The notes beneath the pieces were generated by a model. The model had not been told where the DNA came from. It saw only the letters and a list, made by a program, of their open reading frames with translations, and did not search any database. Positions 19,701 to 43,000 of a stretch of 64,000 nt of DNA are shown piece by piece; positions within the stretch are counted from its first letter, which is position 1; each line of letters starts with the position of its first letter. Location: contig CAWJAS010000002.1 in NCBI GenBank assembly GCA_963840935.1, positions 7,333 through 71,332 of the forward strand. The letters run 5' to 3'. Source of the DNA: Candidatus Magasanikiibacteriota bacterium. GTDB lineage: Bacteria; Patescibacteriota; Patescibacteriia; Magasanikbacterales; GWA2-37-8. The position numbers and the translations under genes are program-made.

Positions 19701-19702
19701 AG

Positions 19703-21734: not shown

Positions 21735-21764
21735 ATTGTTTTGACTTTGATAAACTATTATAAT

Positions 21765-22539: not shown

Positions 22540-24133
<1,594 letters not shown>

Positions 24134-25756: not shown

Positions 25757-25764
25757 AAAAAGGC

Positions 25765-25790
25765 CCGGGTAAATTCCCGGGCCAAACGGC
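25765..25790 (-). terminator. hairpin terminator (ggcccgggtaaattcccgggcc) for the minus-strand lipoprotein gene
   Basis: perfect 8-bp stem followed by a T run on the minus strand. Confidence 0.5.
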
Positions 25791-26328: not shown

Positions 26329-26424
26329 GTTTGCCTCCTTTTTCAAAGCCGAGCTGTTGTTGTAAAGAACGCTTGTTCGCGACTTTATACTATACCTCAA
26401 AAACGCATAATTGTCAACGCAAAT

Positions 26425-27135
26425 CTATACTGTCCGGGCCAAAGTAATTGCCCAGATTTTTTTTGCTCCATTTTGCTTTAACACTTTGGCACATTCGAAT
26501 AAAGTCGCGCCGGTAGTAAAAACATCATCAACCAAAAAAATATTTTCCGATGGTTTATCGTCACGCCAATCAAACGCGCCGAATACATTTTCGGCGCGTT
26601 CCAATTTATTTAATTTTGCTTGTTGGGCGGTGGCCCTTTGTCTTATTAATCTATTTTTTAAAACAAAATTTTTATTTCCAATTTCAAGCGACAATTTATC
26701 AACAATAATTTTTGCAATAAGTTCCGATTGGTTATACCCGCGTTCTCTTTCTCGTTTTTTGTGAAGCGGGACGGGAATAACCGACCATTCACCGTTTTCT
26801 CGCGATAATTTAATTATATCTAAAAAATTTTTTTTAATAATTTTTTGCCACAACGATAAAATATCCCGAGTATAATTATATTTAAAATCAGCAATCAATT
26901 TTGCCAAGACCGATTCTTCTTTGTATACAAAAAATGAAAATGATCCATCAAGCGGACATAAATTTTTGCAGACAAGACACGTTTCACCGTTATTTGGCAA
27001 TCCGCAGGAAGGGCATTTTTTTATCGGTTCCAATTGTTCTCGCGCTAAACAATCCGGGCAAAGCCAATCCCCTTCCCGCCCGCATTTTAAACAAAAAATC
27101 GGAAACAATAAATCTTTTATGTATTTAACAAGCAT
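26425..27135 (-). CDS. comFC: ComF family protein (ComFC-like phosphoribosyltransferase-fold competence protein)
   Basis: N-terminal Cys cluster CLKCGREGDWLCPDC...CPSCG...CLVCK; C-terminal PRTase motif IFLVDDVFTTGATL. Confidence 0.85.
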   Translation of the reverse strand: MLVKYIKDLLFPIFCLKCGREGDWLCPDCLAREQLEPIKKCPSCGLPNNGETCLVCKNLCPLDGSFSFFVYKEESVLAKLIADFKYNYTRDILSLWQKIIKKNFLDIIKLSRENGEWSVIPVPLHKKRERERGYNQSELIAKIIVDKLSLEIGNKNFVLKNRLIRQRATAQQAKLNKLERAENVFGAFDWRDDKPSENIFLVDDVFTTGATLFECAKVLKQNGAKKIWAITLARTV

Positions 27136-27196
27136 ATCATAAAGACGCTCATATGAGCGTCTTTTTATTTATAAAAATCTCGCAAACATTATTCTA

Positions 27197-27811
27197 TTAT
27201 TCAAAACTGTCAACAAGCCAAACATCGTTCGTTTTTACGAGTCTGACGGATGTTTTTTCACTTGTTTTTTCCGTGCTTGACCCTCTGGTAACGGTTCGCT
27301 GAACAGACATTTCAACCTTTGCGTTATCTGCAGAAAATTCAACCACATTTATAGCAACAACATTTGTAGTCACGCCAATAAAAGCCGCCGACGGCGGAGT
27401 ACCAATATGCTGGCTAATATCTTGCCACAGAGACATTGTAACAATCGACTGAACGGCGTAAATATTTTCACTGTTATTGTCGGTTGAATAAGTTCCGTAT
27501 CTTTCAATAAATATTTTGGCGGTTTGCTTGGCTGAGTTTTTCATCATTTCTTCGGTTGTCGGCGGTTTAACAGTGGCGCCCGGTGGGATTACCGTCGACG
27601 GTGTCATTATTTGAGACGGAAAATTTGTTTCATCAATTATATTTTCGTTTATCGGCGTCTCTTCGGCTACCGGTTCGCCCGACTTTTTTTTGAAAACAAT
27701 CAAGGAGATGCTAATGGCAAGAATAATAAAAACAGCCAAACTGATAATAATGAATATACGAGCTCGAAGTGTTATCATAATTTTTTTAATCAGCCGGCGC
27801 GACTGGCGCAC
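27197..27811 (-). CDS. hypothetical membrane-anchored protein
   Basis: N-terminal TM helix, no recognisable domain. Confidence 0.5.
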   Translation of the reverse strand: MRQSRRLIKKIMITLRARIFIIISLAVFIILAISISLIVFKKKSGEPVAEETPINENIIDETNFPSQIMTPSTVIPPGATVKPPTTEEMMKNSAKQTAKIFIERYGTYSTDNNSENIYAVQSIVTMSLWQDISQHIGTPPSAAFIGVTTNVVAINVVEFSADNAKVEMSVQRTVTRGSSTEKTSEKTSVRLVKTNDVWLVDSFE

Positions 27812-27820
27812 GGGTCGAAA

Positions 27821-29689
27821 TTATTTATTTGATTCGTCAAATTCTTTTTTGGCTTTTTCAATCGCCAGTAACTGCTCTGGATTGGTGGTAACAATCTGGT
27901 CCTCGGTATATGAAGCGACCACTTTTATGGCGGCATGTTTCAATCCGGCAAAAAATATTCCCTCGCCCACTCCGGACTCCAACAACAAATATTTTTCACT
28001 GTCGGTCAAAACAAAAATTTTCTGAATCAAGTCAATTGAAGCCGGAGATTGCCGCAATAATAATTGCAAAGCGGAATTTGTGACAATCGCCTGACCGTAC
28101 TGCGAACGCAAAAAGTCATTCACATCCTGAGTAATAGTCGTTACGCCCAAATAATATTTTCGGCATCTTTTGACAAGAGAAAAAATAAATCTGGCAGAAT
28201 CTTCATGCATCATCAACCACCAAGCTTCATCAATAACCAAAACTCTTTTCTTGCGTTCCGAACGAACGACATTCCAAATATAATTGACGATTGAATAAAT
28301 GGCAATCGGTCGCAATTCTTCTTCCAAATCGCGAACCGAGTAAATAACCAACTGATTATTCATGTCCACATTTGTTGGAGAATTAAAAAGTCCGGAAAAT
28401 GTGCCCTCGGTATATTTTTGCAGTTTCAAAACCAGCTCTTCACTGCCTTGCATTCCCTCCAAAATTTCTTGCAAATCCTGCACAATCGGCGGTTTAACCG
28501 TGGTTAAATCGGCATCGGGCGTAATATCTTTTTTGGCGTATGTTTCAATGAGCGCTCGGTCAATAATAGCGTCTTGTTCAACCGAAAGACCGCCAAGCAT
28601 GATGCGCAAAAGTCCTTTCATGGTAATAACCGCTCCCCTGATAACGTCTTCAGTGGATATTTCCATTCCAACCGGACGGGGCAAATCAAACGGATTAATT
28701 TTTGCCTCTGACGAAAGAGAAATATTTATATATGTTCCGCCGACCGCGTCGCTCAAATGTTTGTATTCCATTTCCGGGTCAATTACTATCACATCCACGC
28801 CCATCATCATGGTCCGCAAAATCTCCAATTTTATGGCATAACTTTTACCGGCACCCGAGGTGGCAAAAACAACCATATTGGCGTTTTGCAAAGAAAATCT
28901 ATCAAACAAAATCAAACTGTTATTGTGACGATTAATGCCGTAAAGAATTCCGTTGTCAGAGGTAAGCTCGGCCGAAATAAATGGAAACGAAGCGGCAATC
29001 GGCGAGCTGTTCATGTTGAAAGAAATGTACAGTTCATCGTTCCCCAAAGGCAAAGTGGAATTAAAACCCTGTTCGGCCTGATACAAAACCTTGCGAGTAA
29101 TAATTAATTTTCCGCCAAAAATATTTTCTATATCTTCGCTTACTTGATCCAATTTTTCTTTGTCTTTGGCGTAAACGGTGATGTAAAAACAAAATTGAAA
29201 AAAATGTTCCGTTCCTTGGGTGAGATTATCGCGCAGTTGTTCAATGTCGCGCAAGGCGGTTTCACGAATCGGGTCTCGCGGAGCGCCCTTCTCTGTGTCG
29301 GCGTTAATTTGCGCTTCCAACGCGCCCACCTTATTTTTGAGTTGTTTGAGTATTACGGCTGACTTAACCGGATAAAAAAACATGGAAATATCCATGGTGG
29401 TGGATAAATTAATCACCGGAGAAGCCCAACCGATGGAAATATATCGAGGATATGCCGTGACAAAAAGTGTCCGGCAAAAAACATCACCCAATTGAACAAA
29501 ACTCGACTCCACTCGAAAAGCGGACGGAGCGATTATGTCTCTTATGGTAACTACGCCTTCGCGATATATTTTTTCTTCTTCAAGAGTAACCAGTTCCTCG
29601 CCTGTCTTTCTTTGAATTTCAGAAGTCTCCGTTTTTAGACGGCTTGGCTCTTTAGTAATTTCTTTTGAAATTGTAGGTTTAAAAGCCAT
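27821..29689 (-). CDS. VirB4/TrbE-family type IV secretion ATPase (C-terminal ATPase portion)
   Basis: Walker A VFATSGAGKSY; Walker B RVLVIDEAWWLM (DEAW typical of VirB4). Confidence 0.8.
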   Translation of the reverse strand: MAFKPTISKEITKEPSRLKTETSEIQRKTGEELVTLEEEKIYREGVVTIRDIIAPSAFRVESSFVQLGDVFCRTLFVTAYPRYISIGWASPVINLSTTMDISMFFYPVKSAVILKQLKNKVGALEAQINADTEKGAPRDPIRETALRDIEQLRDNLTQGTEHFFQFCFYITVYAKDKEKLDQVSEDIENIFGGKLIITRKVLYQAEQGFNSTLPLGNDELYISFNMNSSPIAASFPFISAELTSDNGILYGINRHNNSLILFDRFSLQNANMVVFATSGAGKSYAIKLEILRTMMMGVDVIVIDPEMEYKHLSDAVGGTYINISLSSEAKINPFDLPRPVGMEISTEDVIRGAVITMKGLLRIMLGGLSVEQDAIIDRALIETYAKKDITPDADLTTVKPPIVQDLQEILEGMQGSEELVLKLQKYTEGTFSGLFNSPTNVDMNNQLVIYSVRDLEEELRPIAIYSIVNYIWNVVRSERKKRVLVIDEAWWLMMHEDSARFIFSLVKRCRKYYLGVTTITQDVNDFLRSQYGQAIVTNSALQLLLRQSPASIDLIQKIFVLTDSEKYLLLESGVGEGIFFAGLKHAAIKVVASYTEDQIVTTNPEQLLAIEKAKKEFDESNK

Positions 29690-29692
29690 ATT

Positions 29693-30379
29693 TTACGCGT
29701 CTTCTAAATTAAAATCCCCCAAAGGAGCAAGCGGTTCCGATAAAGCGATGTCGGGATTAAAAGTTGAATAAAACAATTCTATTAATGATTGTGTGTCAAG
29801 CCGAACCACCTCAAGCCCCATTCCGGTCAATCCAGACTCAACTTGGCGAACGCGCATATCCAAGTCATATTTTCGTTTAAAAAATCTTTCGTCTTTTAAT
29901 TTAATGGTTATGGCCGGATTAAAAACCTCGGAAGCTCTGGACCAAAAACCCTTTTTCTTATTAGTCAACGGGTCATATGGCACAATAACATAAAATTGCT
30001 TGCTCATAATTTTTCCCAAATCAACCAACTCGGAAACAAATGAACGATAATCGGCGATTTGCATGCGCAAAAGTTCATTGGGCTGTTCCCGTTCTTTTTT
30101 GGCCAAATTTTCCAAATATGGGCGAACATTTAACTGGCGTGATTGAATAACAATCTGCAAAGGATGGTCCAAGCTATTCAAAAAAGAAACATAGGAATTA
30201 ATTATCGCCTGCTGTTCATCGTCGTTTTTGAGCGCAAAATTGATGCTTGATACCATCAAGACCGACCTCAAAGTGCCGTCTTTCATCACAATAGTGTCAT
30301 TACGAACTTCGGAGATAGTTAAATTTTTTTGCGCCGACGGCTTATTCGCTCTGGATTGTACGGCTGATTTATTTTTCAT
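29693..30379 (-). CDS. VirB4-like N-terminal domain protein (split T4SS ATPase), hypothetical
   Basis: stop is 3 nt before the VirB4 ATPase start; N-terminal region pattern DGTLRSVLMVSSINFAL...QIVIQSRQLNV resembles VirB4 N-terminal domains. Confidence 0.45.
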   Translation of the reverse strand: MKNKSAVQSRANKPSAQKNLTISEVRNDTIVMKDGTLRSVLMVSSINFALKNDDEQQAIINSYVSFLNSLDHPLQIVIQSRQLNVRPYLENLAKKEREQPNELLRMQIADYRSFVSELVDLGKIMSKQFYVIVPYDPLTNKKKGFWSRASEVFNPAITIKLKDERFFKRKYDLDMRVRQVESGLTGMGLEVVRLDTQSLIELFYSTFNPDIALSEPLAPLGDFNLEDA

Positions 30380-30401
30380 AATTTACCATCTTGAAAATTA
30401 A

Positions 30402-30839
30402 TTATTCTTCCGCTTGATAATAACCGCCGGTATTAACTGTGAGCGACAGATCGCGGATACGGCTGTATGAATACCTTTTGATTGCTACGGCTTTTTCAGG
30501 CACAATCACTCTTCCTTCCCCGCGCAATCTTTTTATGTCTTCCGTGGTATATAATTTGTTCCAAATTCGAAGCGATGGACGACGCAGAGTTTGGATGATA
30601 TTAAGCAAAAAATAATGGAAGGCTTGGCCGTTTATTTTTACAAAAGCGACTACCAATGAGCCACCACCGATAACAATCAACAAAACAACAAACAAGGCGA
30701 AGTCCGCCAATTTGAAAGCGGCAAAAAGTGTTAAACCGGCGGCCAAAAGAATCACAAATTGACGGGCGGTTACCGGCCCAAATATTTTGTCTTCAACATC
30801 GATAAATTGCGGAACAACAAATTGTGATTCAACCGGCAT
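30402..30839 (-). CDS. PrgI-family (VirB3-like) small membrane protein
   Basis: VPQFIDVEDKIFGPVTARQFVILLAAGLTLFAAF plus two TM helices. Confidence 0.5.
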   Translation of the reverse strand: MPVESQFVVPQFIDVEDKIFGPVTARQFVILLAAGLTLFAAFKLADFALFVVLLIVIGGGSLVVAFVKINGQAFHYFLLNIIQTLRRPSLRIWNKLYTTEDIKRLRGEGRVIVPEKAVAIKRYSYSRIRDLSLTVNTGGYYQAEE

Positions 30840-30845
30840 AAAAAA

Positions 30846-31958
30846 TTATAACAAATCTTTTTCCATTTTAATTAAGGCGTTGATTTCATCTATGGATATT
30901 TTCTCGTTTTTGACTCTTTCTGTCAATTTTGATTTTGCGTTCAGAGCTTCAACCGAGGCATTAACATAGTCAATAAAAAGAGGACTCCCTCGCCAAGCTT
31001 CTAGCGCGTTAATAAAAAGCAAATATGATTCTTCTTTCAAATTAATAAACTTCTGTTTTAATCGGGCGGCGGCTTCTTCAGGATTTGTTGATAAACGACG
31101 AAAATCTGTCAATGTAAAAAATCTGATTTCATCAACCGGTCCCAAGTTCATCGGTTTGGCCGGAGTAATATCCTGCATTATCGGACGGGCTTGGCTGTTA
31201 TTTTTTGGCATTATATCCCCGCTTTCAATCACTCTGCCGGGTGAAGAAATATTTTTTGGCGCATGAATAAAAGGATTATTGGGAGTTGATACTGCCGGAA
31301 AAGGTTCACGGTCTTCTTTTGCTAATGCAGTCGGAGTACCAAGTGGTCTTTTGAGTACCGGCACATTCGTTTCAACCGGTTTTTTTCTTTTTTCTTCAAT
31401 TAATTTCAAAACTTTTTCAGTTTGTTCTTTGTTTAACCCGATTCCCATTTGATTTTCCGGCATCATCATCCAGTCGCGAGCTTCGTCTTCCGAGCGAATA
31501 TCTTTCAGACGCAATTGGACAAGACCGATCAAGCGCTTTTCCGTGTTAGGGTTTAATTTCAAACCGGATTTTTGCACAATTTCTTTTGCTTCAACCAAAC
31601 GGTCTTCAGACTTTGATTTGGTCCCACCCGCTGGCATTTCATCTTCCAAAAGGGATTTGGCGTCTTCTTTGCCAAAAGATACACTCGATTTTGGCGCAGG
31701 ACTCTCAATTTTTTTTACTTGCGGAGGAGTCATCGGCAAAATCTTTTTTATTTCCGGTTTTTTGGGTAGAATTTGTTTTGGCGGTTCGATTTTTTTGGGC
31801 GCTTGCGGAATGACGGTCGGTTTTTTTGGCGGTTCAGCCGGTACTGCCGGAACAACGCTCTTTTTCCCGCGAGCGCGAAACTCCTCGAGCGTTATTTTCT
31901 CGATTGTGCCGTCAGAATGTTTAATTGGAATCAAAGTCGCCATAATTATATATTCCAT
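30846..31958 (-). CDS. hypothetical Pro/Lys-rich protein in the T4SS-like cluster
   Basis: PKKPTVIPQAPKKIEPPKQILPKKPEIKK repeats; no domain recognised. Confidence 0.5.
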   Translation of the reverse strand: MEYIIMATLIPIKHSDGTIEKITLEEFRARGKKSVVPAVPAEPPKKPTVIPQAPKKIEPPKQILPKKPEIKKILPMTPPQVKKIESPAPKSSVSFGKEDAKSLLEDEMPAGGTKSKSEDRLVEAKEIVQKSGLKLNPNTEKRLIGLVQLRLKDIRSEDEARDWMMMPENQMGIGLNKEQTEKVLKLIEEKRKKPVETNVPVLKRPLGTPTALAKEDREPFPAVSTPNNPFIHAPKNISSPGRVIESGDIMPKNNSQARPIMQDITPAKPMNLGPVDEIRFFTLTDFRRLSTNPEEAAARLKQKFINLKEESYLLFINALEAWRGSPLFIDYVNASVEALNAKSKLTERVKNEKISIDEINALIKMEKDLL

Positions 31959-33013
31959 TTGAATTTGCCGGACTCTTCATCAAAATAATAAAGCTCGGCG
32001 ATTTTTGGGTCATTGTATTTTTTTGAAGCTTTTTCCAAAGCCATCATCACCGAATCCAAATCTTCATAATTACCATTCGTGTCTTTTTCAAAGACGGCGT
32101 CAATTTTTTGATAAATTTCGGAATATGAGGGTTTAACTAATTCTGGTTGCGAAGAAACATCGGGCATAACTGCGGGAATATTTTTTTGCGCTACAACCGA
32201 TGTAGTTTTGAAAACAGGCGCGAGTTTTACAGGTGTATTACCAATTTTATTTTCACTTAATATCAGTATTGAATTCGGTATTTCAGGCACTTCTGTCGGT
32301 GGGAAACTTTTTTCAAAAGAAGAAATATCAGCCACATATTCTTCTATGTCTTCAATATTGGACCGAGTATAACTCAAAACTTTTACAGCCATTTCCTCCG
32401 GCTTTGTCTCCAAGAAGAATTCTAGCAAATCAAACAATTCAGTATAAAAATCATTTGCTTCCGCCATAAAAAACTCTACAGCGAATTCGTCGTTATCCAA
32501 ATTAATTATTTTTCTTATTTTTTCGATAAACTGCGCCATCTCAATTGAGTCCCTGCCTTTACTGCGAATAAGTTTCATTTCTTGGACTGCGTCAGCTATT
32601 GTGTATTTTTTTTCTTCCCAATACCCGATAATGGCACCGGACTGGAGTAACGCGTCTTTGACTTGAATAAAAAGAGTGCGATACTCGTCAATGCGTATGC
32701 ATTTAGTGTTAAAAAACCAAATAATTTTTAAAAACACATCAAAATTCAAAAATAAAGCTTCGGCAATTTGTTTTTTAATCGCCAATTCGACAAATTCTTC
32801 TTTTGACAACCAAACCAAATCTTCCCATATCATTTCCGTGAGATGAGCAAAATTACCGTACCGGTCAGAATAATCTTCTTCATATGAAGTGGCTGTATAT
32901 TTGCCAAGCAAAGCGATTTTTAATTCGGTTTTTTGCTGTAAATTCAATTTATTAAAAAAATCGCGTTCTTCTTTTAACTTGGCCATGTCAAATTTTATCG
33001 ACACTGCGTTCAT
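31946..33013 (-). CDS. hypothetical protein in the T4SS-like cluster
   Basis: long ORF overlapping its downstream neighbour by 13 nt. Confidence 0.5.
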   Translation of the reverse strand: MNAVSIKFDMAKLKEERDFFNKLNLQQKTELKIALLGKYTATSYEEDYSDRYGNFAHLTEMIWEDLVWLSKEEFVELAIKKQIAEALFLNFDVFLKIIWFFNTKCIRIDEYRTLFIQVKDALLQSGAIIGYWEEKKYTIADAVQEMKLIRSKGRDSIEMAQFIEKIRKIINLDNDEFAVEFFMAEANDFYTELFDLLEFFLETKPEEMAVKVLSYTRSNIEDIEEYVADISSFEKSFPPTEVPEIPNSILILSENKIGNTPVKLAPVFKTTSVVAQKNIPAVMPDVSSQPELVKPSYSEIYQKIDAVFEKDTNGNYEDLDSVMMALEKASKKYNDPKIAELYYFDEESGKFKWNI

Positions 33014-33050
33014 AATTATTAATTACTTTTATATTTCTCAATTTAATACA

Positions 33051-35774
33051 TTAATAATTGGGACTGATAATTGGCTCATATTCTTCACCACCTTGATATT
33101 CATCTATTCTAGAAAATAACGGAACAGGCTCTTTACCTTTAACCGGAACTTTAATACCATCGCCTAATGCATCTTTTATCTTTTCATCAAGACGCGCGAA
33201 CAAGGCTTTCACGCCTTTGTCATTATCCGGATTAGCTTTTATCATACCATTAACAACAAGCTGAAGATTTTGTTTTATTTGGCCCTTTCTCTCGTCACTC
33301 GCCGTTAATACTTCTGAGAATATTTCATTCAAATCAGCGACATCTTGAAACGCGACATTAGCCGCCCGTGGAGGCGTAATTCCTCGATACCTGCTAACCA
33401 AATTATCTCTGGCCGCTTCGCTGTCGCAGCTTAATCTCACTTTGCCATCAGCGTGGTCACGATCAACCATGCCTCTCAAACCTCTCGCCCTACCGGCTGA
33501 AGCTTGGCTGCGCGCTTGTATTACTTTATTCTCGCGAAATCTATTATCATCATCATTGGTTGGGTCAACCAATTTCCAAGAACCATCACGATTTGTCCTC
33601 ATTAAACCGGCAAAAGAAATTGCGCCATTATCGGCCATATTTTCAAAAGAATTTGCGAGCACTGTCATCGCGCCTTCAAATTGTCCTCCCATTTTTGTCT
33701 TTAATTCATCAAACGCAGTTCTGACAGCATCGGTTGAAGCATCGACTTGTCTATCAAGATGAGCCGATAAAAAATCGGCTTGTTGAGCAACAACATCGCC
33801 CGCTTCTCTAACGCCTTGAGTCGGGCTAACAATTGCCATAGCTTTGACACCCAGCGAAGCGCTTCGTGACATAGCCGCCTGCATCATATCAGTCAAATCT
33901 TCAGTCAAAGCCTCTCTCTTTGTTGAGCCAACTTCACTCTGATCGCGCGCTGTCTTAATTCTCTCCATTTCACTTAAAAATAAATCCGCGTTTTGCGTAT
34001 TCCAAAATTCCATATCTTCTTTTTTATGTCTGGCTGCCAAATCTTGGGTATAACGAGTTGTCGCAACACCCCTTCTGTGTTCATACTCAGTATTTCTTGC
34101 TTCAGCCACTCTACCTTGCTCGGCTCGTTCTCCTTCAATTTTTAAACGCGCTGTTTGCGCTTCTCGAAAATACAACCCTTCTTCACCTTTAAACATTCCG
34201 GGTTCTTGCTTGATTAATTTCTCAATGGCTTCGTTAGAACGTTTTGTTTTTACATATTCTTTACCTTTTCCCAACGCCTTAATTTTCGCCTCTAGATAAG
34301 CGGTTTCATCCTTCATTTTGGGCGGAGCGCCAACTGTTGAAGCACCGGTAATTTGTTGTCGCAACTCAATTTGTTTTTTTAATTCATCCATTCTACCTTT
34401 TCTGCCACCAACTTGAAGCCTTTGTCTTATTCCGCCGGCCTTATACCCTCCCATTACTTTTTCATTCCAAAACCCAACTGCTTCGCCTGCTTTCTTTTTC
34501 ATTCTCAAACCCCTTTCTTGCCACGCCTCACCCCCAACAATTGGAGCTTTCATCGCCGCAAACTTACCCGCTTTTTTTGCTCCGCTCACTGCCGCGCGCC
34601 CGGCCGTCCTTGCCCCCCATTTAACCGCTGCCACACCACTCATCATCGCCGCGCCCTTCATGGCAAACGCGCCGGCTTGACCCATAATTTCTGAACCGGC
34701 CGCACCGAGTTTTGTGGCAACTTTAACACCGGCCATAAGCATAAAAAAAGCGATTAGAAAACTGGCCAACTGTTCGCTTTCCAAAAATTTATTCAAATTA
34801 GACCCGCCCTCCTCCTCGCCTTCTCGTGAAACAGTTTCCATCTCTGCCTTGTAATTATCGCCCATCGGGTATGAGCTTTCAGCAAACTCACTATGCGCCA
34901 TTCCCCCGCCGGCCACGGCAAAAGCCAACCATAAGAAAAAAGCCAAAACCGGTCCGATAATAACGTTATTGGAAAATTCACTCCACCATTGACTGGAATA
35001 TGTTTGAAATTTTGGAATAATTCCAAGGATAAAAGCAAGGGGAGAAAGTATTATTAAAATCCACAAAGCAATTACGCGCGATAAAAGAACGATTAAATAA
35101 CCACCCATAACCAACATGGTGCCAAAAGCAAAAATCATTGCCATCATGGCCGAGGCCACCATATTCCCGGAACTCATTTCTGTTGGACTGACATTTTTAG
35201 AAAAAGAAACTATGTCGTTTAATTGCAAGGCATTGAATATATTGCCACCGGCTGTAGCCGCGACTCCACTAATAAAAGTCATCATAAAAACCTGCGCCGC
35301 ATCAATTATCACTCCGCAAATTACGCGTGAAAAATTAACCAAAATTGCGGCCAGCACAAATTTTACCAATAATTTTTTCCATTCATATTGCTCAATGCCA
35401 AGAACCGTGACAAACGCGATAAGCATTAAAATGATTACAAAAAACATGTTCGTGATATCGCGCACCAAAATCCAACCCAAACCCACCGCGTTTGAATTAA
35501 TATAACCGTTGTAACTGGCAATTTCTATGACAAATTTCAAAATAAAAATAGTCAAACCCATGAACTTTGAAGCAATCCACAAAAACAAATCACCAATAGC
35601 CATTAATATTGAATCACCTATACTGCCGTCTTCGCCACGCGCAATATCTCCGACAACAAAAAGGAAGAAAAGGCAAAGGCCGGCAACAAAAATTCCGGAC
35701 ATCAAACCCAGCCGAGTTTTCGGTTTGATTATATTCAAAAATTGTTTTCCCTTCTGAACCAGGGAATTTACCAT
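33051..35774 (-). CDS. large polytopic membrane protein (VirB6/TrbL-like channel candidate) with coiled-coil C-terminal region
   Basis: ~10 TM helices in the first 450 aa, then charged coiled-coil; start at ATG 35774 downstream of TTGTGC-17-TGTGGTATAAT. Confidence 0.55.
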   Translation of the reverse strand: MVNSLVQKGKQFLNIIKPKTRLGLMSGIFVAGLCLFFLFVVGDIARGEDGSIGDSILMAIGDLFLWIASKFMGLTIFILKFVIEIASYNGYINSNAVGLGWILVRDITNMFFVIILMLIAFVTVLGIEQYEWKKLLVKFVLAAILVNFSRVICGVIIDAAQVFMMTFISGVAATAGGNIFNALQLNDIVSFSKNVSPTEMSSGNMVASAMMAMIFAFGTMLVMGGYLIVLLSRVIALWILIILSPLAFILGIIPKFQTYSSQWWSEFSNNVIIGPVLAFFLWLAFAVAGGGMAHSEFAESSYPMGDNYKAEMETVSREGEEEGGSNLNKFLESEQLASFLIAFFMLMAGVKVATKLGAAGSEIMGQAGAFAMKGAAMMSGVAAVKWGARTAGRAAVSGAKKAGKFAAMKAPIVGGEAWQERGLRMKKKAGEAVGFWNEKVMGGYKAGGIRQRLQVGGRKGRMDELKKQIELRQQITGASTVGAPPKMKDETAYLEAKIKALGKGKEYVKTKRSNEAIEKLIKQEPGMFKGEEGLYFREAQTARLKIEGERAEQGRVAEARNTEYEHRRGVATTRYTQDLAARHKKEDMEFWNTQNADLFLSEMERIKTARDQSEVGSTKREALTEDLTDMMQAAMSRSASLGVKAMAIVSPTQGVREAGDVVAQQADFLSAHLDRQVDASTDAVRTAFDELKTKMGGQFEGAMTVLANSFENMADNGAISFAGLMRTNRDGSWKLVDPTNDDDNRFRENKVIQARSQASAGRARGLRGMVDRDHADGKVRLSCDSEAARDNLVSRYRGITPPRAANVAFQDVADLNEIFSEVLTASDERKGQIKQNLQLVVNGMIKANPDNDKGVKALFARLDEKIKDALGDGIKVPVKGKEPVPLFSRIDEYQGGEEYEPIISPNY

Positions 35775-35913
35775 ATAATCTTTATTTGCATAGATTACTT
35801 TAATATTATACCACATAATAACAGCGCGCACAAAGTAAAATATGACGCATTTTTATCCACAGAAATTTAGTATTTTATTTATAAAAAATAATTATTATTG
35901 CGAGGGCTGACTA

Positions 35914-36710: not shown

Positions 36711-36737
36711 CCCGCGATTTCATCGCGGGTTTTTATT
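36711..36737 (+). terminator. rho-independent terminator after the lipoprotein gene
   Basis: cccgcgat-ttc-atcgcggg followed by tttttatt. Confidence 0.55.
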
Positions 36738-37016: not shown

Positions 37017-40000
37017 TTAGCTTCCTGCCATCGGCACAACCACCACCCAGCCATCATAATATATCCAAGGTCTCACCTTATTTATTTCACAATCATTAAC
37101 AGTCATCTCACTATAACACCCTTTCCCATCTACTTGTGGATTTGAAGAATATGTACAACTCCCCGTGCACCAACCCCAATTATCAAGCACATGAACTTTT
37201 GGCCGGGCAACGCAAACATATGGGGCATTATAAAAATTCTGACGGATATAATTCCAATCAATTGACCTGCCGGAAATCGGAGTATCCGGCTGTTCGTTGC
37301 TCATCACAATCTCCATTGTGCCATAAGGGCAATTATAGTCCATTACAAAATCCCAAGGTTTATCTTTGCAACCGGTGTCTGTGGTGTTGCCGAAAGTTCG
37401 CTCCTCGGCGCTTTGCGGATAACAAGATGAACCACCGCAATCGGCATTAGTATTGCACGTAAAAGGCCAATCTTCTTCGTCGTTACCGCATGTACTATCA
37501 GTGCACAAAGGTTTTCTATTACCTATTGAATCGCTAATTTCCGAATCAACTTGTGTATCATTATCATCACCTTTATTAACAACCACTCTGCGTAAGGGCA
37601 TTTGATTGCCATGCGCCCAAGCATAAAATTTAATTCGCGTCTGCGAACCGGAAAATAAATAAATATTCCCACTGGTGGTGCCATTGACAGAAATTTTGTC
37701 TAACTCCCAAGAACTGCCTGATGGCGCGGCAACTTGAGGCGGATAAATATCCATTTGTCCAATTCTACTTGCATTTGTTGGATTCGCAGCATCAACTTCT
37801 TGATAATACGATACATACCCGATATCAAAACCGTTTTCCACGTCATTATAATAATAATCATAGACTTTTGCGAACATGCTTTTCATCAACACTTTTTCAA
37901 AAGGCCCTTGTTGCATTGAAGTAGTATCTTCCATGGCATCCAAACTATATTTAAAATATTCGGGAAGACAATAAGACCCAGTACAATCATTTTTACGCTT
38001 ACCGCTCCAAGCAACAGACAGCGGGGTGCCAGCCTTATAATTTGTAAACGCATAATTATTATCTTGACTTCCGTTTTGCGAAAAAGGAATATTCTTTGTA
38101 TCTAAATTTAAATTAAAAACAAATGGGTTAATAAAAGCTGCGGTGGTAATACCTGTGATATCCACTAATCCGGATTCTGTACTGTAAGCAAGGCCGTATT
38201 TTCCGCCATTCAACGTCTCTTCTCGAGGAGAAACTTGCGCGGTCGTTGGATAATTACTACTAAAACTGACGACCTTATCTGTATTTAATCGATTGGTAAA
38301 CGGTTTGGCCAAGAAGTCGCTCGTGCTACTAACCATTGAGACCTGAGCGAACTTTTGACATTTACCGGGAGCAAAATGAATAACAAAGAAATAGCCTAAA
38401 CCGGAGTTGCCAGAATGTAAACCATTTTCAACATTCAACCAAATACCGCGGAAATAGTATTGATCATCAAATACTATCCTAACTCCGATACTTTCTTTTT
38501 CATCTTCAAAAGCATGATAAACCATTCTGTCTTTATCTTCACAAATTCCCTCAATAGCTATTTTTTCCTTACCTAAATCAGTGCTACTTCCATCAGACCA
38601 TTGATTCAACCAATTCGGACTGCCACTGTTTTTTGCATACCAAGTCCAGGCGCGCCAATCTTTACCGTCTTTACACAAATTATCCAACGAAGCGGTTGAA
38701 ATACTTGTTTCACCTTCATTGGTTATCCAACCACCGTCTTCTGTAATAAAAGCTCTGTTTGATTCTTCCTCTGCGTCCGCATCGACTGAATCTCTTATGA
38801 AACTGACCCACCCTCCTCCTTTTGGCATATTGGTCGCGCTGTCAAGAAATACATCTATTCTTTCTATTTCATCGCGATGAATATATTTTCCGCTTTCAGT
38901 GTTCAACCATTTTCTATCTGTATACCACCAACCCTCGTTGTCCCTGCACCCTTCCGGTGTCTCATAGCAACCCCTTTGTGTCAATTCATCAACATCTGTA
39001 ATGTCAACATTTACAGGACAGTACCAGCCATTAGAATCATTACTATCGGTAGACTGATAGTAACGCATATCCCAACCCCAATCACTACTAACTTCATATG
39101 AACAACCGATTAATATCGCGTTATCCGGAACACCTTTTATGCCCATACCGGCTGACAAACTTAAATCAGAAATCATTGAATCGTCTCTCATCATTCCTTT
39201 GGGCCAATTACCTCCGAAATCTTTTGCATTAGAATTACCCATGGCAATGCCGACATTTTGATATGAATCTTGTATAGTAGGCTCATTTTCCAAACACATA
39301 AATCTATCCTGCGCGCCTTCAAGAATTTCATATCCGGCATTCGGGTCTTGCTCCCAATAATTGGGAATACCCGGCGGATATTCGAGTGGGAACCAAGTCA
39401 AACAAGCATTGGAAGTTGAACCGTAAATTCTTTGGCGTTCGTCTCGTTCGGTGCAATAGCCAAGCCAGCCATTCATCACTTGAAAACTATTTATTTTGGA
39501 GCAGATTCCACCTTCTCCGCATTGAGTGGTTGTTTCCGGGTCAGTGCAAAATTTGCCTTTGTACGGGCCGGATGAACAAATATAATTACCGGACATTGAT
39601 TCTGTTTTGCTTATACGCTTGTAAACATCGCCACTGCCGGTTTTTAATTTTCGATATGAACAATAATAATCATAATCGCAAGAAACCGGATTGCCATTAT
39701 CACTATAACATAAGTTCACATTTTCAAATCCCGTTTTGTATTGAAGCGGTTTATCTCTTTCATAATCAATAAGCACGCTCGACCTGAAAGGACTGACTTC
39801 TTCGGCATATGCCCGGCAAGTCAATACTCTTGATTGCGCCGGATTTGTGGCGCTGTATCCTTTCAAACATTCGCCGTTATAACAATAACCCCAAGTACCA
39901 CCGGGCCCGCACTGGTCGCCATCGTCTTTTTGTCCATAAAGAAGATCTGCGGAATCATAACAGCTATTGATATCGTCTTCATTCAAAAAACTATATTGAT

Positions 40001-43000
40001 TGTTCACATAAACCAAACGATAAGTGTCATCAATTTTTCTGGCTGTAAGGTCGGGCACTTGATAAGTGTTAAAAAGCGAATAACCGGAAAAATCCCAGGA
40101 ATCCCAAGAGGTCATCAAATCCTGATAATAATCTTTTGACAATGTTTCACCTTTTGTATCCCAATCGGTCGCCGGTTCGGCGCAATCCTTGACCACTCGA
40201 CCGGCGACAGTGTCAACCGCGCCGGCGCGATTACAAACACCAAGATGATAGCAACGATTTTTTATTTCACCGGAATCTTCATCTTCAAATTCTTGTTTAA
40301 GGTCGCAATAGGCCCACTCTCCGCAAACACGGTCTTGAGTCACTTTAATAATAATATTGGCGTCATTACTACCAGTAAGAGAAACCGGCGCGACAAGAGC
40401 GTCGTTTAATTCACGCGATGTTTCATATGATGAAGTGGTGTGCCAAAATTTATTTGGATTGCCGGTTTTATCAAGCAAAACACATCCTTCCGCTCGGCTG
40501 ATTTGGCCGTTACACTTGCTTTGAGCTTCACTTAATTTTGTATTATCAATTAAATAATAGGCGTTGCTCGTATTAACCACGCAATATCCGTCAGTTTCCG
40601 GAACACAGTCACTATCGGCATTGCACTTTTTACCGCTAATGGAACATTTTTTGTTTTCTTGCGTACTACTCCAATCAATAAATTCATTACAACCCGACTG
40701 TTCTTCGGGGCAAAGACCGACAAAACCGGTATATTTTTCTGTGTTGCCGAATGACCAAAGACCATACACTCCAAAAGATTTATTTTCCGCGTAACAAGGA
40801 AGTTGATTTTTGAACATACATTTACCTATGCCAATATGGTTCTCACAGTCGGTGTCAGCGGTACAGGCTCGACCCATATATAATCCGGCGTCTTCCAAAA
40901 TACAAATTCCGGTATCTTTCCATATCCACCCGGTTGAGTTAGGATGCGCGGATAATTTCGAAGTTGAAGTTGGTTGCATTTGCAATGTTGCCGGCAAATG
41001 GATAGCGATAAAGGCTTCTGTCTTGTATTCACAAATCAAACCGCCGTTTGTTACCGGGTCTTTAAAGTAATAATTGCTCTGGCTTGAAGACCATGATTTG
41101 CAGGATTCGGCCTCGGAGAAACAAGACATTGATTCATAAAGAGCCGGGTCATTTTTTATGCCCACGGCCTCAAATGTTTCATAGTGAGTGAACAGCGTGG
41201 TTGGATTGCCAAAAAAATCAAAATTATAACTCTTTCCGCTTATGTTTGTTGTGGCGCGCCCCACAACTTGGCAACCCATATTTTCGGATTTGCATGTGGC
41301 TGATTTATTGGCCACCAAATATATGGGCGTGCTTGACGGAGTATCCGCCGGAATAAATATGGTTGAATCAACCAACTTTGGCTTTGCGTTATCACCGACA
41401 GTTTCCCCGCCGTTAAATATTTGCTCCGCGGTTTTATCAAAAACATCAACATAACAACCTGTCTGGCCGGTCGGGGCAAAACATTCAAAAAGTTCACCAT
41501 CTATTGTTGCTTTTGCTTGCATCCCCGGAGTTAAACTGGGTTCATACATAAGCAATTCCAATCGCACATTATAAGCGCGGGAAGTCGTATCTTCCGGAGT
41601 GTTAAATGTGTCAATCAAAGCGGTGCAACCAACCGCCGCTTCACGGCATAAATAATTAAAATTGGTAAGATAGTAATTGGTTTGTGTCGGGTCAGTGTAT
41701 GCCGAACAACCCAAGGCCTCGCCCGGTAAATTATCATTTGTGTTACTGTCGCAAATCGGGTCAACACTCAAAGAATTTTTTACCAAATACAGGTAATCAT
41801 CAACTTCCGTCAAAATAATATTATCTATATAAATCTGCCCGACACTATTCCCGAAAGTAAAACGCAATTCACCGCTCAAGGTATCTTCTCCGTTGTATTC
41901 AACCGGTCCCAAGGAATAATAGCGCCAAACATCCGATAAAACTAAAGTGTTGTCAGATAATGATTGCTCTGTCATGGTGGAATTATCCAACAAAGCAATT
42001 TTGTTTATCGCTAAATTGCCTTTCGCCCAAAATGACAAAACGTAATTCTTGCCTTTTTTAAATGATAAATTAATTTTACCGGCCAGACTATTAGCAGATG
42101 CCGATTCGGCTGTAATTTTGAGAGAATGACCTTCGAGCTGAGTCGATTCCGTGGAAATTATCTCGCTCATGCTAGCCGTAGTTTTCCAATCAATCGTTGT
42201 GGTTGAATATTCAAAATCCTCTTCAACAATCTTGCGAACATTGTATCCGGCGTTACCTTTGAAGGACCGGCATGAATTTGATTCGGCAGAACAGGCAATA
42301 CTATCGCCGGCGCCATTTGTGTTGCCGGTAAAGCCCATATAGAAACAAGCATTGCTTCGGAATTCAACCGTGGCATCACCGGTGTGGTTGTCAACTTCAC
42401 CATTATCAAAATCAAACGGACAGCGAGGGGCCTCGCTTTCATAAGAAATCAATTCAGTGTTATTAAGCCGGTACGGAGTGCACTGGTCGGTGACAATTAA
42501 TGTTTTTGAAAGCATGGCATAATGCGTGTCGCCAAATTCATCAATAAATTGATGACAATCTGGTTCGGCCGTTTTGTTAGCGTAGCTCTCTTCCGAGCAA
42601 TAATCATTATCCGGCGCGGTATATTTATTCATCTCATCTCCATCGCGATAAATTTGTTTAGGCCCGTTTGATTTGTCGCTCTTCGCCAAAGTATATGTTT
42701 TAATTTCATAGCCTTTTGTTTCGGAACGCTCATAGACAGTGTAATTTCTTTGCAAATTTTGGTCAGGCAAAATGCACGGACGCAAATAAGTGAAGTATTC
42801 GTTTTGTTCCAATCCGCCGACCGTGGTGGATAAATTTGTGAACGAACTGCAACCGGCTTCTTCGGCCGAGCAAGTTTTTCCGGATGATGGAATAATGTAT
42901 GTTATTAATTCACCATTGGTGTAGTTACTTGGCATTTCACGATAAGCATCATAACCAACGCATTTGTAATCGCATTGGTCGTTCCATGTGACAATTCCCC

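What the first reader, a model, noticed from the sequence alone, without database searches (positions are those of the whole stretch)
26425..35774. T4SS-like gene cluster: PrgI/VirB3-like, split VirB4 ATPase, VirB6-like 908-aa membrane protein, with ComFC
A minus-strand array encodes a large polytopic membrane protein, two unknown proteins (one Pro/Lys-rich), a PrgI-family protein, a VirB4 N-domain ORF separated from the VirB4 ATPase ORF by a stop and 3 nt, a small membrane protein, and ComFC. A split VirB4 and a minimal component set resemble Gram-positive-type conjugation or DNA-uptake machinery. In an episymbiotic CPR bacterium this could be a DNA-uptake or host-interaction apparatus. No VirD4/relaxase is in the window.
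Basis: partly seen in the sequence, partly recalled or inferred. Interest (0 to 1): 0.6.

Follow-up and report, generated by a model that had tools for sequence, protein, structure and literature searches.

The report
Known CPR type IV secretion cluster
This is the chromosomal, non-conjugative type IV secretion gene cluster that nearly all CPR/Patescibacteria carry, here in its Magasanikbacteria (ABY1) form with the competence gene comFC attached; it is real, and the 'split VirB4' is the normal two-gene TrsD + VirB4 arrangement, but the system was already described in 2023-2025.

Summary
Eight co-directional minus-strand genes at 26425-35774 encode:
- an extended VirB6/TrbL-like membrane protein
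- two unknown soluble proteins
- PrgI/VirB3
- a TrsD-like protein
- a VirB4 ATPase
- a small bitopic protein, which I assign to the VirB8 fold
- ComFC

**The split VirB4.** It is neither an error nor recoding. In 76 of 76 related species genomes the two ORFs are separate, in all three relative frames. The stand-alone N-domain protein is a large family whose 150 best representatives are all 91-443 aa. A Firmicute megaplasmid shows the same VirB6-like/PrgI/TrsD/VirB4 order.

**Context.** The block lies among housekeeping genes in a Candidatus Magasanikbacteria genome. It keeps its order across the 80 species genomes retrieved. No relaxase or coupling protein is in the window.

**Prior work.** Quinonero-Coronel et al. 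2025 and Wang et al. 2023 already describe this system. That includes TrsD, PrgI, VirB6, rare VirB8 homologues found mostly in ABY1, the comF co-location in ABY1, and essentiality in Saccharibacteria.

**What this adds.** The additions are small: the VirB8-fold assignment, an extended VirB6 with a confidently folded C-terminal domain, two conserved unknown genes, and the fact that synteny ends exactly at comFC.

**Verdict.** The substrate is unknown. DNA import through ComFC remains possible but unproven. Interest is low to moderate.

The parts
33051..35774 (-). Extended VirB6/TrbL-like polytopic membrane protein. It is 907 aa from the ATG at 35774; alternative starts are 35816 (921 aa) and 35831 (926 aa). 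About 8 hydrophobic helices lie in the N-terminal ~370 residues, followed by a disordered charged linker and a folded C-terminal domain (~545-905).
   Evidence: The window protein has no direct Pfam hit. Of 41 homologues, 8 hit Pfam TrbL PF04610, best E 2.1e-6, the only recurrent family. Homologue P0072 is named a T4SS protein by NCBI. The AF2 model has pLDDT 70.7 overall, ~80-89 in the TM core and ~90 in the C-terminal domain. The top 5 PDB matches are TrwI/VirB6 of R388 (E 0.02-0.1, prob >=0.99, TM-score normalised to target length 0.44-0.47). BFVD matches include proteins annotated TrbL/VirB6 (E 2.6e-4). TM scan.
31946..33013 (-). Unknown acidic soluble protein (355 aa, pI 4.7), fast-evolving, with a conserved C-terminal ~60-aa motif (KIAELYYFDE..GKF.WN).
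   Evidence: No hits in Pfam, NCBIfam, PHROGs or PDB sequences. Only 7 database homologues. Found in the same slot in 24 of 71 assessable loci at ~28% identity. No relative in the Pontibacillus T4SS cluster.
30846..31958 (-). Unknown basic Pro/Lys-rich soluble protein (370 aa, pI 9.4) with a conserved C-terminal ~110-aa helical domain. Homologue length ranges from 250 to 1020 aa.
   Evidence: No family or PDB hits. Present in the same slot in 70 of 72 assessable loci. Length spread. No TM segment.
30402..30839 (-). PrgI/VirB3-like small membrane protein (145 aa, 2 TM helices).
   Evidence: Pfam PF12666 PrgI E 6.7e-10, 39.8 bits, above the gathering score of 27. TM scan. Present in 73 of 74 loci at median 55% identity. 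BLASTP E 2e-4 to the equivalent Pontibacillus gene.
29693..30379 (-). TrsD-like protein (228 aa): a stand-alone homologue of the VirB4 N-terminal domain.
   Evidence: NCBIfam TrsD/TraD E 8.5e-10. It matches positions 3-94 of 752, 98-233 of 894 and 10-149 of 792 in three VirB4 models. It is a separate ORF in 76 of 76 loci. The family has 2194 representatives, and the best 150 are 91-443 aa long. BLASTP E 2e-28 to the gene just upstream of virB4 in Pontibacillus.
27821..29689 (-). VirB4 ATPase (622 aa) with Walker A and Walker B motifs.
   Evidence: NCBIfam NF045971 (VirB4-like, CD1110 family) 364.8 bits, above the cutoff of 325. Pfam P-loop_TraG 1.8e-28, AAA_10, DUF87 and CagE_TrbE_VirB. Identity is 68-91% to 80 CPR species genomes but at most 35% to any plasmid VirB4.
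27197..27778 (-). VirB8-like bitopic membrane protein (193 aa): N-terminal TM helix, disordered linker, NTF2-like domain.
   Evidence: AF2 model pLDDT 84.4. The Foldseek PDB search is led by the PrgL VirB8 domain 7aed (E 2.3e-5), followed by TcpC 3ub1, CagV 6iqt, TraH 5aiw, OrfG 8s7l, Rickettsia VirB8 and TrwG/VirB8 7q1v. Sequence searches found only a weak SnoaL_4/NTF2 hint. Present in 63 of 74 loci.
26425..27135 (-). ComFC/ComF-family protein (236 aa): double zinc ribbon plus PRTase domain. It is the last gene of the conserved block.
   Evidence: TIGR00201 comF E 4.5e-29 and GntX E 6.8e-29 over their full lengths, both below the curated cutoffs. Pfam zinc ribbon and Pribosyltran hits. It lies directly downstream on the same strand in 65 of 70 assessable loci. 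A 10-bp-stem hairpin lies between it and the VirB8-like gene.
37017..45293 (-). Giant (2758 aa) Cys-rich secreted or anchored protein with a CBM_4_9 domain, upstream and co-directional. It is a possible accessory or adhesin; its membership of the system is not established.
   Evidence: One N-terminal TM/signal segment. Pfam CBM_4_9 E 8.3e-7. A homologue was detected upstream of the VirB6-like gene in only 15 of 50 assessable loci.

Best explanation
This is the chromosomal, vertically inherited type IV secretion system of the Patescibacteria clade, derived from the monoderm MPF_FATA class. It appears here in the arrangement typical of Magasanikbacteria and other ABY1 lineages.

**Shown here.**
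- The block encodes the cytoplasmic-membrane core of a monoderm T4SS: VirB4 ATPase, its separately encoded N-domain homologue TrsD, VirB3/PrgI, an extended VirB6, and a VirB8-fold protein.
- It also encodes two lineage-specific soluble proteins and ComFC.
- The two-gene TrsD + VirB4 state is the ancestral, conserved condition, not a broken gene.
- The block sits among housekeeping genes and has no relaxase or coupling protein nearby.

**Inferred from established T4SS knowledge.**
- A VirB4 hexamer is anchored by VirB3.
- It docks onto a VirB6/VirB8 channel and powers movement of a macromolecule across the single membrane.

**Inferred from published work on Saccharibacteria.**
- The machine is not a conjugation apparatus.
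- It serves the epibiont-host interface, where it is essential for growth.

The substrate and the direction of transport are unknown. The tight operon-like linkage to ComFC in this lineage makes nucleic acid the leading candidate here, but this is not shown.
For: **Component identities.**

**Organism and conservation.**
- VirB4 is 68-91% identical across 80 CPR species genomes.
- The order VirB6-like/g7/g6/PrgI/TrsD/VirB4/VirB8-like/ComFC is kept wherever it can be assessed: TrsD 74/74, PrgI 73/74, g6 70/72, ComFC 65/70.

**Split VirB4.**
- The two ORFs are separate in 76 of 76 loci.
- Relative frames are spread 22/31/23 and stop codons vary, so neither readthrough nor a frameshift fits.
- The stand-alone family has 2194 representatives, none of the top 150 longer than 443 aa.
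- The same TrsD-VirB4 adjacency occurs on a Pontibacillus megaplasmid.

**Chromosomal context.** Neighbours include KsgA, RF1, Sua5, FtsW, GyrB, SMC, ClpP, TrmD and NusG. No relaxase or VirD4 was found.

**Literature.**
- The Patescibacteria VirB4 clade is nested in MPF_FATA. TrsD, PrgI, VirB6 and rare VirB8 homologues (nearly all ABY1) have been reported, relaxase is absent, and comF/recG/radA are co-located with the T4SS in ABY1 (PMC12102498).
- The T4SS is essential in Southlakia while comEC, comF and dprA are dispensable (PMC10633639; PMC12857230).
Against: - Function was not tested. The window shows only part of the genome, so a coupling protein, relaxase, VirB1-like hydrolase or VirB2-like pilins could be encoded elsewhere. 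PMC12102498 reports VirD4 homologues mostly far from virB4.
- The VirB6 assignment rests on weak scores: no direct Pfam hit, and PDB fold E-values of 0.02-0.1.
- The NTF2 fold of the VirB8-like protein is widespread. Non-T4SS NTF2 proteins (ARC6, CaMKII hub) also appear among the fold matches.
- No VirB4 phylogeny was built here, so clade membership is inferred from identity levels only.
- Essentiality is known only for Saccharibacteria, a different class.
Confidence: 0.82

Rival explanations
1. The cluster is specifically a DNA (or nucleic-acid) import machine. The T4SS core takes up host or environmental DNA and hands single strands to the co-encoded ComFC. This would be analogous to Helicobacter ComB plus ComFC, or to the archaeal Ced system.
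For: - ComFC is the last gene of the conserved block in 65 of 70 assessable genomes.
- The next gene (534-aa membrane protein) is retained in only about 10 loci, so synteny ends exactly after comFC.
- There is no relaxase or coupling protein, as expected for an importer.
- PMC12102498 notes comF, recG and radA near ABY1 T4SS loci.
Against: - In Southlakia the T4SS is essential but ComEC, ComF and DprA are not. Competence depends on ComEC, so the essential role of the T4SS there is not transformation.
- No ComEC, DprA, RecG or RadA is in this window.
- The CedB match is only generic VirB4 homology: 55.9 bits against a cutoff of 700.
- A hairpin between the VirB8-like gene and comFC may partly uncouple their transcription.
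- Adjacency alone does not show function.
Confidence: 0.22
2. It is, or is a remnant of, a conjugative element (ICE or plasmid) that moves DNA out of the cell.
For: - VirB4 passes the cutoff of a family named for conjugal transfer.
- The closest non-CPR relatives are on Firmicute and Actinobacterial plasmids.
- A serine-recombinase ORF and tRNA-Ser lie 2.3 kb beyond comFC.
Against: - No relaxase or coupling protein is in 64 kb.
- The flanks are housekeeping genes.
- The block is fixed at the same chromosomal position across 80 species, with VirB4 at 68-91% identity.
- The recombinase ORF lacks its catalytic N-domain. It belongs to a separate low-GC restriction-modification islet that the related loci do not share.
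- PMC12102498 finds relaxases in only 103 of 3,035 genomes.
Confidence: 0.03
3. The VirB4 split is a sequencing or assembly error, or a recent pseudogenising mutation (possibly rescued by readthrough of the in-frame TAA).
For: In this window the stop is in frame with the downstream ORF, and only 3 nt separate the stop from the ATG.
Against: - The ORFs are separate in 76 of 76 independent genomes.
- Relative frames are evenly spread (22/31/23).
- Gaps range from a few nt to about 300 nt, and four loci have 5.5-7.4 kb between the two genes.
- The downstream ORF always starts at a conserved ATG that aligns to residue 1.
- TrsD-like proteins form a large stand-alone family (PMC12102498).
Confidence: 0.01

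Closest known systems
Patescibacteria-clade T4SS (Quinonero-Coronel et al. 2025, PMC12102498), including the essential Southlakia epibionticum locus SEML1_0006-0019 (Wang et al. 2023, PMC10633639)
   Same: - VirB4 with an adjacent stand-alone TrsD, PrgI/VirB3 and VirB6.
- Chromosomal location near housekeeping genes such as ksgA.
- No relaxase.
- The ABY1-specific co-location with comF and the ABY1-biased VirB8 homologues are both reported there.
   Different: - The Saccharibacteria locus carries an essential array of VirB2-like pilins and peptidase/lysozyme genes next to virB4. No such genes were seen in this cluster.
- This locus instead has two unknown soluble proteins between VirB6 and PrgI, and comFC at the end.
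Staphylococcus aureus pGO1/pSK41 Trs system (MPF_FATA subclass with TrsC, TrsD, TrsE)
   Same: A separate TrsD gene, remotely homologous to the VirB4 N-terminus, lies upstream of the VirB4 ATPase, together with a VirB3-like protein (PMC12102498; NCBIfam TrsD/TraD hit).
   Different: - pGO1 is a conjugative plasmid with a relaxase and a coupling protein, and the paper says its subclass lacks a recognisable VirB6.
- Here the TrsD match is far below the family cutoff (38.8 bits against 200), and the locus is chromosomal and relaxase-free.
Enterococcus faecalis pCF10 Prg/Pcf channel (PrgH VirB6, PrgI VirB3, PrgJ VirB4, PrgL VirB8)
   Same: - The PrgI family match passes the Pfam threshold.
- The best structural match of the 193-aa protein is the PrgL VirB8 domain.
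- Both have monoderm architecture without outer-membrane core proteins.
   Different: - pCF10 has a single full-length VirB4, a ~300-aa VirB6, the PrgK hydrolase, the PrgB adhesin, a relaxase and a coupling protein.
- This locus has a TrsD + VirB4 pair, a ~900-aa extended VirB6, and none of the others.
T4SS-like cluster on the Pontibacillus sp. ALD_SL1 megaplasmid NZ_CP062975
   Same: - It is the closest plasmid VirB4 (33.7% identity, E 7e-116).
- It has the same order: 779-aa membrane protein, PrgI-like, TrsD-like, VirB4.
   Different: - It has a pilin-like Mbov_0395-family gene upstream and a 1050-aa peptidoglycan endopeptidase downstream.
- It has no g6 or g7 homologues and no ComFC.
- It is typed non-mobilizable.
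DNA-uptake T4SSs: Helicobacter pylori ComB (with ComFC acting downstream) and archaeal Ced
   Same: These are relaxase-free T4SS-derived machines that import DNA. ComFC is a downstream ssDNA handler in H. pylori (Damke et al. 2022, as cited in PMC10633639).
   Different: - ComB is a diderm VirB2-B10 system.
- Ced uses CedA/A1/A2 plus CedB.
- Only generic VirB4 similarity to CedB is seen (55.9 bits against a cutoff of 700).
- Nothing here shows import.

Membership tests
Type IV secretion system, monoderm MPF_FATA class / Patescibacteria clade | VirB4-family ATPase with intact Walker A and B motifs | tested here: met
   NF045971, 364.8 bits against a cutoff of 325. Pfam P-loop_TraG, AAA_10 and CagE_TrbE_VirB. 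GAGKS and VLVIDEAW motifs are in the translation.
Type IV secretion system, monoderm MPF_FATA class / Patescibacteria clade | VirB4 belongs to the Patescibacteria-specific clade nested in MPF_FATA | tested here: inconclusive
   Identity is 68-91% to 80 CPR genomes but at most 35% to the best plasmid VirB4s, which are Firmicute or Actinobacterial CD1110-type. This is consistent with the clade, but no tree with reference sequences was built.
Type IV secretion system, monoderm MPF_FATA class / Patescibacteria clade | VirB3/PrgI-like small membrane protein next to virB4 | tested here: met
   PF12666, 39.8 bits against 27. Two TM segments.
Type IV secretion system, monoderm MPF_FATA class / Patescibacteria clade | Stand-alone TrsD-like protein (VirB4 N-domain homologue) associated with virB4 | tested here: met
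   TrsD/TraD E 8.5e-10, below the family cutoff, plus matches to VirB4 N-terminal model positions. Separate in 76 of 76 loci. Family lengths 91-443 aa.
Type IV secretion system, monoderm MPF_FATA class / Patescibacteria clade | VirB6/TrbL-family polytopic membrane protein | tested here: met
   The support is indirect but comes from three independent lines: TrbL Pfam hits in 8 of 41 homologues, TrwI/VirB6 as the top PDB fold matches, and TrbL/VirB6-annotated matches in BFVD. There are 8 hydrophobic helices. The window protein itself has no Pfam hit at E<0.1.
Type IV secretion system, monoderm MPF_FATA class / Patescibacteria clade | VirB8-like bitopic protein with an NTF2-like domain | tested here: met
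   AF2 pLDDT 84. Top fold matches are PrgL, TcpC, CagV, TraH, OrfG and TrwG. There is no sequence-level match.
Type IV secretion system, monoderm MPF_FATA class / Patescibacteria clade | VirB2-like pilins and a VirB1-like hydrolase near virB4 (frequent but not universal in Patescibacteria) | tested here: inconclusive
   No hydrolase family was hit in the cluster. A crude hydrophobicity scan found no unannotated small two-TM ORF. The CONJscan pilin profiles were not available.
Conjugative element (ICE or plasmid transfer system) | Relaxase and VirD4/TcpA-type coupling protein associated with the mating-pair genes | tested here: not met
   No such family was hit among any window ORF of 200 aa or more. 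The rest of the genome could not be examined.
Conjugative element (ICE or plasmid transfer system) | Mobile context: variable location, integration module, patchy distribution | tested here: not met
   The synteny block and chromosomal neighbours are the same in related species. The flanks are housekeeping genes. The nearby recombinase is truncated and not shared by relatives.
ComF/ComFC competence protein family | N-terminal Cys4 zinc ribbon(s) plus a C-terminal PRTase domain with a PRPP-loop motif | tested here: met
   Pfam zf-tcix and DZR_2 hits at residues 8-59 and Pribosyltran at 167-233. CxxC pairs and VFLVDDVFTTGAT are in the translation.
ComF/ComFC competence protein family | Score above the curated family cutoff | tested here: not met
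   TIGR00201 scores 101.7 bits against a cutoff of 233.55, and GntX 100.9 against 304. The protein is clearly homologous over the full length but divergent.
DNA-import T4SS (archaeal Ced / Helicobacter ComB) | Family-specific components (CedA/A1/A2 with CedB, or ComB2-B10) | tested here: not met
   CedB scores 55.9 bits against a cutoff of 700, and CedD E 6.6e-5 against a cutoff of 600. No other Ced or ComB family was hit.

The most novel reading that the evidence does not exclude
In Magasanikbacteria and other ABY1 lineages, the ancestral CPR type IV secretion core may have been wired to ComFC to form a T4SS-dependent route for importing host nucleic acid. It might use the two lineage-specific soluble proteins and the folded C-terminal domain of the extended VirB6 as cytoplasmic adaptors. 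That would be a monoderm bacterial counterpart of archaeal Ced and Helicobacter ComB, and would feed a nucleotide-auxotrophic epibiont.
Probability: 0.18. Interest if true: 0.7.

Novelty: already known. Interest (0 to 1): 0.28.

Why it matters
The CPR T4SS is one of the few machines shown to be essential for the epibiotic lifestyle of these ultrasmall bacteria, and its substrate is still unknown. This locus adds no new kind of system.

It does document the ABY1 arrangement cleanly:
- a complete membrane core: TrsD, VirB4, VirB3, extended VirB6 and a VirB8-fold protein
- two conserved unknown cytoplasmic proteins
- a synteny block that ends exactly at comFC

If the ComFC link is functional, it would point to nucleic acid as the cargo in this lineage. 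That is a testable lead on how CPR bacteria obtain nucleotides from their hosts.

Tried and rejected
1. **Readthrough or recoding of the in-frame TAA.** Rejected. Relatives use all three relative frames and all three stop codons, with gaps from about 1 nt to 7.4 kb.

2. **Sequence-profile searches of the g2, g6, g7 and g8 families against PDB chains.** Nothing meaningful came back. The g8 hits were only coiled-coil or low-complexity matches.

3. **g6 and g7.** Neither has hits in Pfam, NCBIfam or PHROGs. g7 has too few database homologues (7) for a good model. hhalign against every protein of the Pontibacillus T4SS cluster gave nothing. Both remain unknown.

4. **Inserts between the trsD-like and virB4 genes in L048, L050, L051 and L052.** The 5.5-7.4 kb inserts were examined in L048 only. 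That insert has higher GC and no Pfam hits, so it is unexplained.

6. **The giant upstream protein as a fixed partner of the cluster.** Support is weak: it was detected in 15 of 50 assessable loci.

7. **The recombinase/tRNA-Ser neighbourhood as an ICE boundary.** Rejected. It is not shared by relatives, the recombinase is truncated, and it lies in a separate low-GC islet.

Full report
**1. What is in the sequence**

Eight genes are packed on the minus strand between 26425 and 35831:

| Coordinates (minus strand) | Size | Call |
|---|---|---|
| 33051-35831 | 907-926 aa, depending on start | polytopic membrane protein |
| 31946-33013 | 355 aa, pI 4.7 | unknown, acidic |
| 30846-31958 | 370 aa, pI 9.4 | unknown, Pro/Lys-rich |
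| 30402-30839 | 145 aa | two-TM protein |
| 29693-30379 | 228 aa | VirB4 N-domain-like |
| 27821-29689 | 622 aa | ATPase |
| 27197-27811 | 204-aa ORF; 193 aa from the ATG at 27778, as in homologues | single-TM protein |
| 26425-27135 | 236 aa | ComFC |

**2. Organism and setting**

- The VirB4 protein finds 190 relatives in species-representative genomes. The best 80 share 68-91% identity.
- Those that carry an informative name are Candidatus Magasanikbacteria, Uhrbacteria or Patescibacteria. Several records carry an obviously wrong 'Gammaproteobacteria' label.
- The window is therefore CPR, in the ABY1-type lineage.
- The neighbouring genes are housekeeping:
  - KsgA, RF1, Sua5, FtsW/RodA, GyrB, SMC and ClpP
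  - TrmD, S16, NusG, QueA, MltG and guanylate kinase
- No ORF of 200 aa or more in the 64 kb hits a relaxase or a VirD4/TcpA coupling-protein family.

**3. Component identities**

- **VirB4.** It passes the curated cutoff of NCBIfam NF045971, 'VirB4-like conjugal transfer ATPase, CD1110 family' (364.8 bits against 325). It aligns to model positions 172-728 of 752. Walker A and B motifs are present.
- **The 228-aa protein.**
  - It aligns to positions 3-94 of the same model, to the N-terminal regions of two other VirB4 models, and to the TrsD/TraD family at E 8.5e-10.
  - Together the two ORFs tile a full-length VirB4.
- **The 145-aa protein.** It passes Pfam PrgI (39.8 bits against 27).
- **ComFC.** It matches TIGR00201 and GntX end to end at E about 5e-29 and has the zinc-ribbon plus PRTase architecture. 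It scores below the curated cutoffs.
- **The large membrane protein.**
  - It has no direct family hit.
  - Eight of 41 homologues hit Pfam TrbL/VirB6, best E 2.1e-6, the only recurrent family. One homologue is named a T4SS protein by NCBI.
  - Its AlphaFold model has pLDDT 70.7 overall and 80-89 in the helical membrane core.
  - The five best PDB matches are TrwI/VirB6 of the R388 T4SS (E 0.02-0.1, probability at least 0.99).
  - The viral-model library returns proteins annotated TrbL/VirB6 (E 2.6e-4).
  - With about 8 hydrophobic helices followed by some 550 hydrophilic residues, it fits the 'extended VirB6' type described in PMC12857230.
  - Its C-terminal ~360 residues fold confidently (pLDDT about 90), and no informative fold match was obtained for them.
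- **The 193-aa single-TM protein.**
  - It models at pLDDT 84 as a TM helix, a linker and an NTF2-like domain.
  - Its best structural matches are the VirB8 domain of PrgL (E 2.3e-5), then TcpC, CagV, TraH, OrfG, Rickettsia VirB8, DotI and TrwG/VirB8.
  - I call it VirB8-like. The caveat is that other NTF2-fold proteins also appear in the list.
- **The 355-aa and 370-aa proteins.** They have no TM helix that looks real, and no family, PDB-sequence or PHROG match.

**4. The 'split VirB4'**

I extracted both ORFs from every related locus that contains them.

- In 76 of 76 loci they are separate.
- The upstream ORF ends in TAA (49 loci), TAG (21) or TGA (6).
- The downstream ORF begins at a conserved ATG.
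- The relative frame is 0, 1 or 2 in 22, 31 and 23 loci respectively. The gap is usually 1-30 nt, reaches about 300 nt, and is 5.5-7.4 kb in four loci.

The in-frame arrangement in this window is therefore coincidence. Frameshift, sequencing error and readthrough are all excluded.

Two further results agree:
- A full HMMER scan of 1.84 billion representatives found 2194 relatives of the 228-aa protein. The best 150 are 91-443 aa long, and none is fused to an ATPase.
- The closest plasmid VirB4, on a Pontibacillus megaplasmid (33.7% identity), is preceded by a 274-aa protein that matches the 228-aa protein at E 2e-28. Before that come a PrgI-like gene and a 779-aa membrane protein with a weak profile match to the VirB6-like family.

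The two-gene state is thus inherited from monoderm MPF_FATA systems. It corresponds to TrsD + TrsE of the pGO1 subclass, as PMC12102498 states.

**5. Conservation of the block**

Across the 80 loci the order is VirB6-like, g7, g6, PrgI, TrsD, VirB4, VirB8-like, ComFC, kept on one strand. Where the flank is long enough to judge:

| Gene | Loci with the gene in its slot | Median identity |
|---|---|---|
| TrsD | 74/74 | 60% |
| PrgI | 73/74 | 55% |
| g6 | 70/72 | 30% |
| VirB8-like | 63/74 | 32% |
| VirB6-like | 47/56 | 37% |
| ComFC | 65/70 | 37% |
| g7 | 24/71 | 28% |
| VirB4 | 80/80 | 75% |

- The next gene beyond ComFC, a 534-aa membrane protein on the other strand, is retained in only about ten loci. 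The conserved block therefore ends at comFC.
- The giant 2758-aa secreted protein upstream was detected in 15 of 50 assessable loci. It is at most a lineage-restricted neighbour.
- A strong terminator-like hairpin follows the Asp/Thr-repeat gene at 25762-25783. A 10-bp hairpin lies between the VirB8-like gene and comFC. Whether comFC is co-transcribed is therefore open.

**6. What is already known**

Quinonero-Coronel et al. 2025 (PMC12102498) surveyed 3,035 Patescibacteria genomes and reported the following:
- VirB4 is present in about 80% of them and forms a monophyletic clade nested in MPF_FATA.
- TrsD is the most abundant accessory component, with 2,272 homologues, mostly next to virB4.
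- PrgI/VirB3 and VirB6 are common.
- VirB8 homologues are few and nearly all in ABY1.
- Relaxases are almost absent.
- KsgA and replication genes are often nearby.
- In ABY1, T4SS loci commonly include comF, recG and radA.

Wang et al. 2023 (PMC10633639) showed by Tn-seq that the T4SS of Southlakia epibionticum is essential for epibiotic growth, whereas comEC, comF and dprA are not. ComEC mediates transformation there (summarised in PMC12857230). A 2026 preprint reports tubular structures that may be T4SS pili at the interface between another CPR parasite and its host, and discusses RNA acquisition.

**7. How it most likely works**

Shown:
- The full cytoplasmic-membrane core of a monoderm T4SS is present and under strong constraint.
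- It is chromosomal.
- It has no relaxase or coupling protein within 64 kb.

Inferred from established T4SS biology:
- VirB4 hexamers are anchored through VirB3/PrgI.
- They dock on a VirB6/VirB8 assembly and power assembly and substrate passage.
- TrsD probably supplies the membrane-proximal N-domain function in trans.

Inferred from the Saccharibacteria genetics: the role is at the host interface and is not conjugation.

The substrate is not known. In this lineage the ComFC linkage makes single-stranded nucleic acid a reasonable candidate, with Helicobacter ComB plus ComFC and archaeal Ced as precedents. Against that, the Southlakia data separate T4SS essentiality from competence, and no other com or rec gene is in the window. 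I put the specific DNA-import reading at about 0.2.

**8. Verdict**

- The system is already known.
- My increments are:
  - a structural VirB8 assignment
  - three lines of support for the extended VirB6
  - proof that the split is ancestral
  - the definition of the synteny block
  - two conserved unknown proteins worth modelling with ComFC and VirB4
- Interest is low to moderate.

Noticed in passing
window 1-1850 and 1852-3183: The first ~1850 bases are 60% GC, against ~40% elsewhere. They carry an ECF sigma region-2 ORF (709-1266) and a zf-HC2 anti-sigma ORF (1338-1634). They abut a 16S rRNA gene that stops at model position 1335 of 1533 at base 1852. This looks like a chimeric join or foreign DNA at the 3' end of the 16S. 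The 16S match is also broken in two pieces between 2253 and 2309.
   Followed up: partly
window 25801-26400 (-) and 36071-36649 (+): Two paralogous lipoprotein-like genes flank the T4SS block in opposite orientation. Each has a signal peptide ending in Cys, a (Asp-Thr-Asp-Ser)n repeat and a Cys-rich domain. Their repeats form a 144-nt imperfect inverted repeat (74-84% complementary) 9.9 kb apart. Homologues occur at the same positions in only a few related loci (L002, L003, L005).
   Followed up: partly
window 36733-36763 and 36940-36970: A 25-31 nt GC-rich palindromic element (CCCGTCAGTCGCGACTGACGGG) occurs twice, 206 nt apart, in the spacer between the Asp/Thr-repeat gene and the giant gene. 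Both copies score as terminator-like hairpins.
   Followed up: no
window 17526-24133: A low-GC (34-37%) islet carries a ResIII/DEAD helicase (19703-21529), an N6/N4 DNA methylase (18687-19700) and a small HTH-like ORF (21534-21734). It also carries a serine-recombinase ORF (22841-24097) that lacks the catalytic N-domain and runs into tRNA-Ser(GCT) at 24038-24133 on the other strand. It is probably a decayed integrated element, and it is not shared by the related loci.
   Followed up: partly
L048 2291-9734; also L050, L051, L052: In four related genomes, 5.5-7.4 kb separates the trsD-like gene from virB4. In L048, the only insert examined, the DNA has higher GC (~60% against ~50%) and its ORFs have no Pfam hits. 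The content and origin are unknown.
   Followed up: partly
window 33051-34440 (C-terminal ~360 residues of the VirB6-like protein): This part of the extended VirB6 is predicted with pLDDT about 90 as a mostly helical globular domain with small beta hairpins. No informative match for it was found among solved structures or viral models, and it is poorly conserved in sequence among homologues.
   Followed up: partly
window 37017-45293 (-) and 45296-45967 (-): A 2758-aa Cys-rich protein has one N-terminal hydrophobic segment and a CBM_4_9 carbohydrate-binding domain. It is followed by a 223-aa protein with bacterial TSP3 (calcium-binding) repeats. Both lie just upstream of the T4SS block and downstream of ksgA. 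They are candidate surface or adhesion proteins.
   Followed up: partly
L003, L007-L010 and many other loci (record titles): Many of the closest relatives are deposited as 'uncultured Gammaproteobacteria bacterium', although they carry this CPR-specific block at 70-89% VirB4 identity. These are evidently mislabelled MAG records.
   Followed up: no
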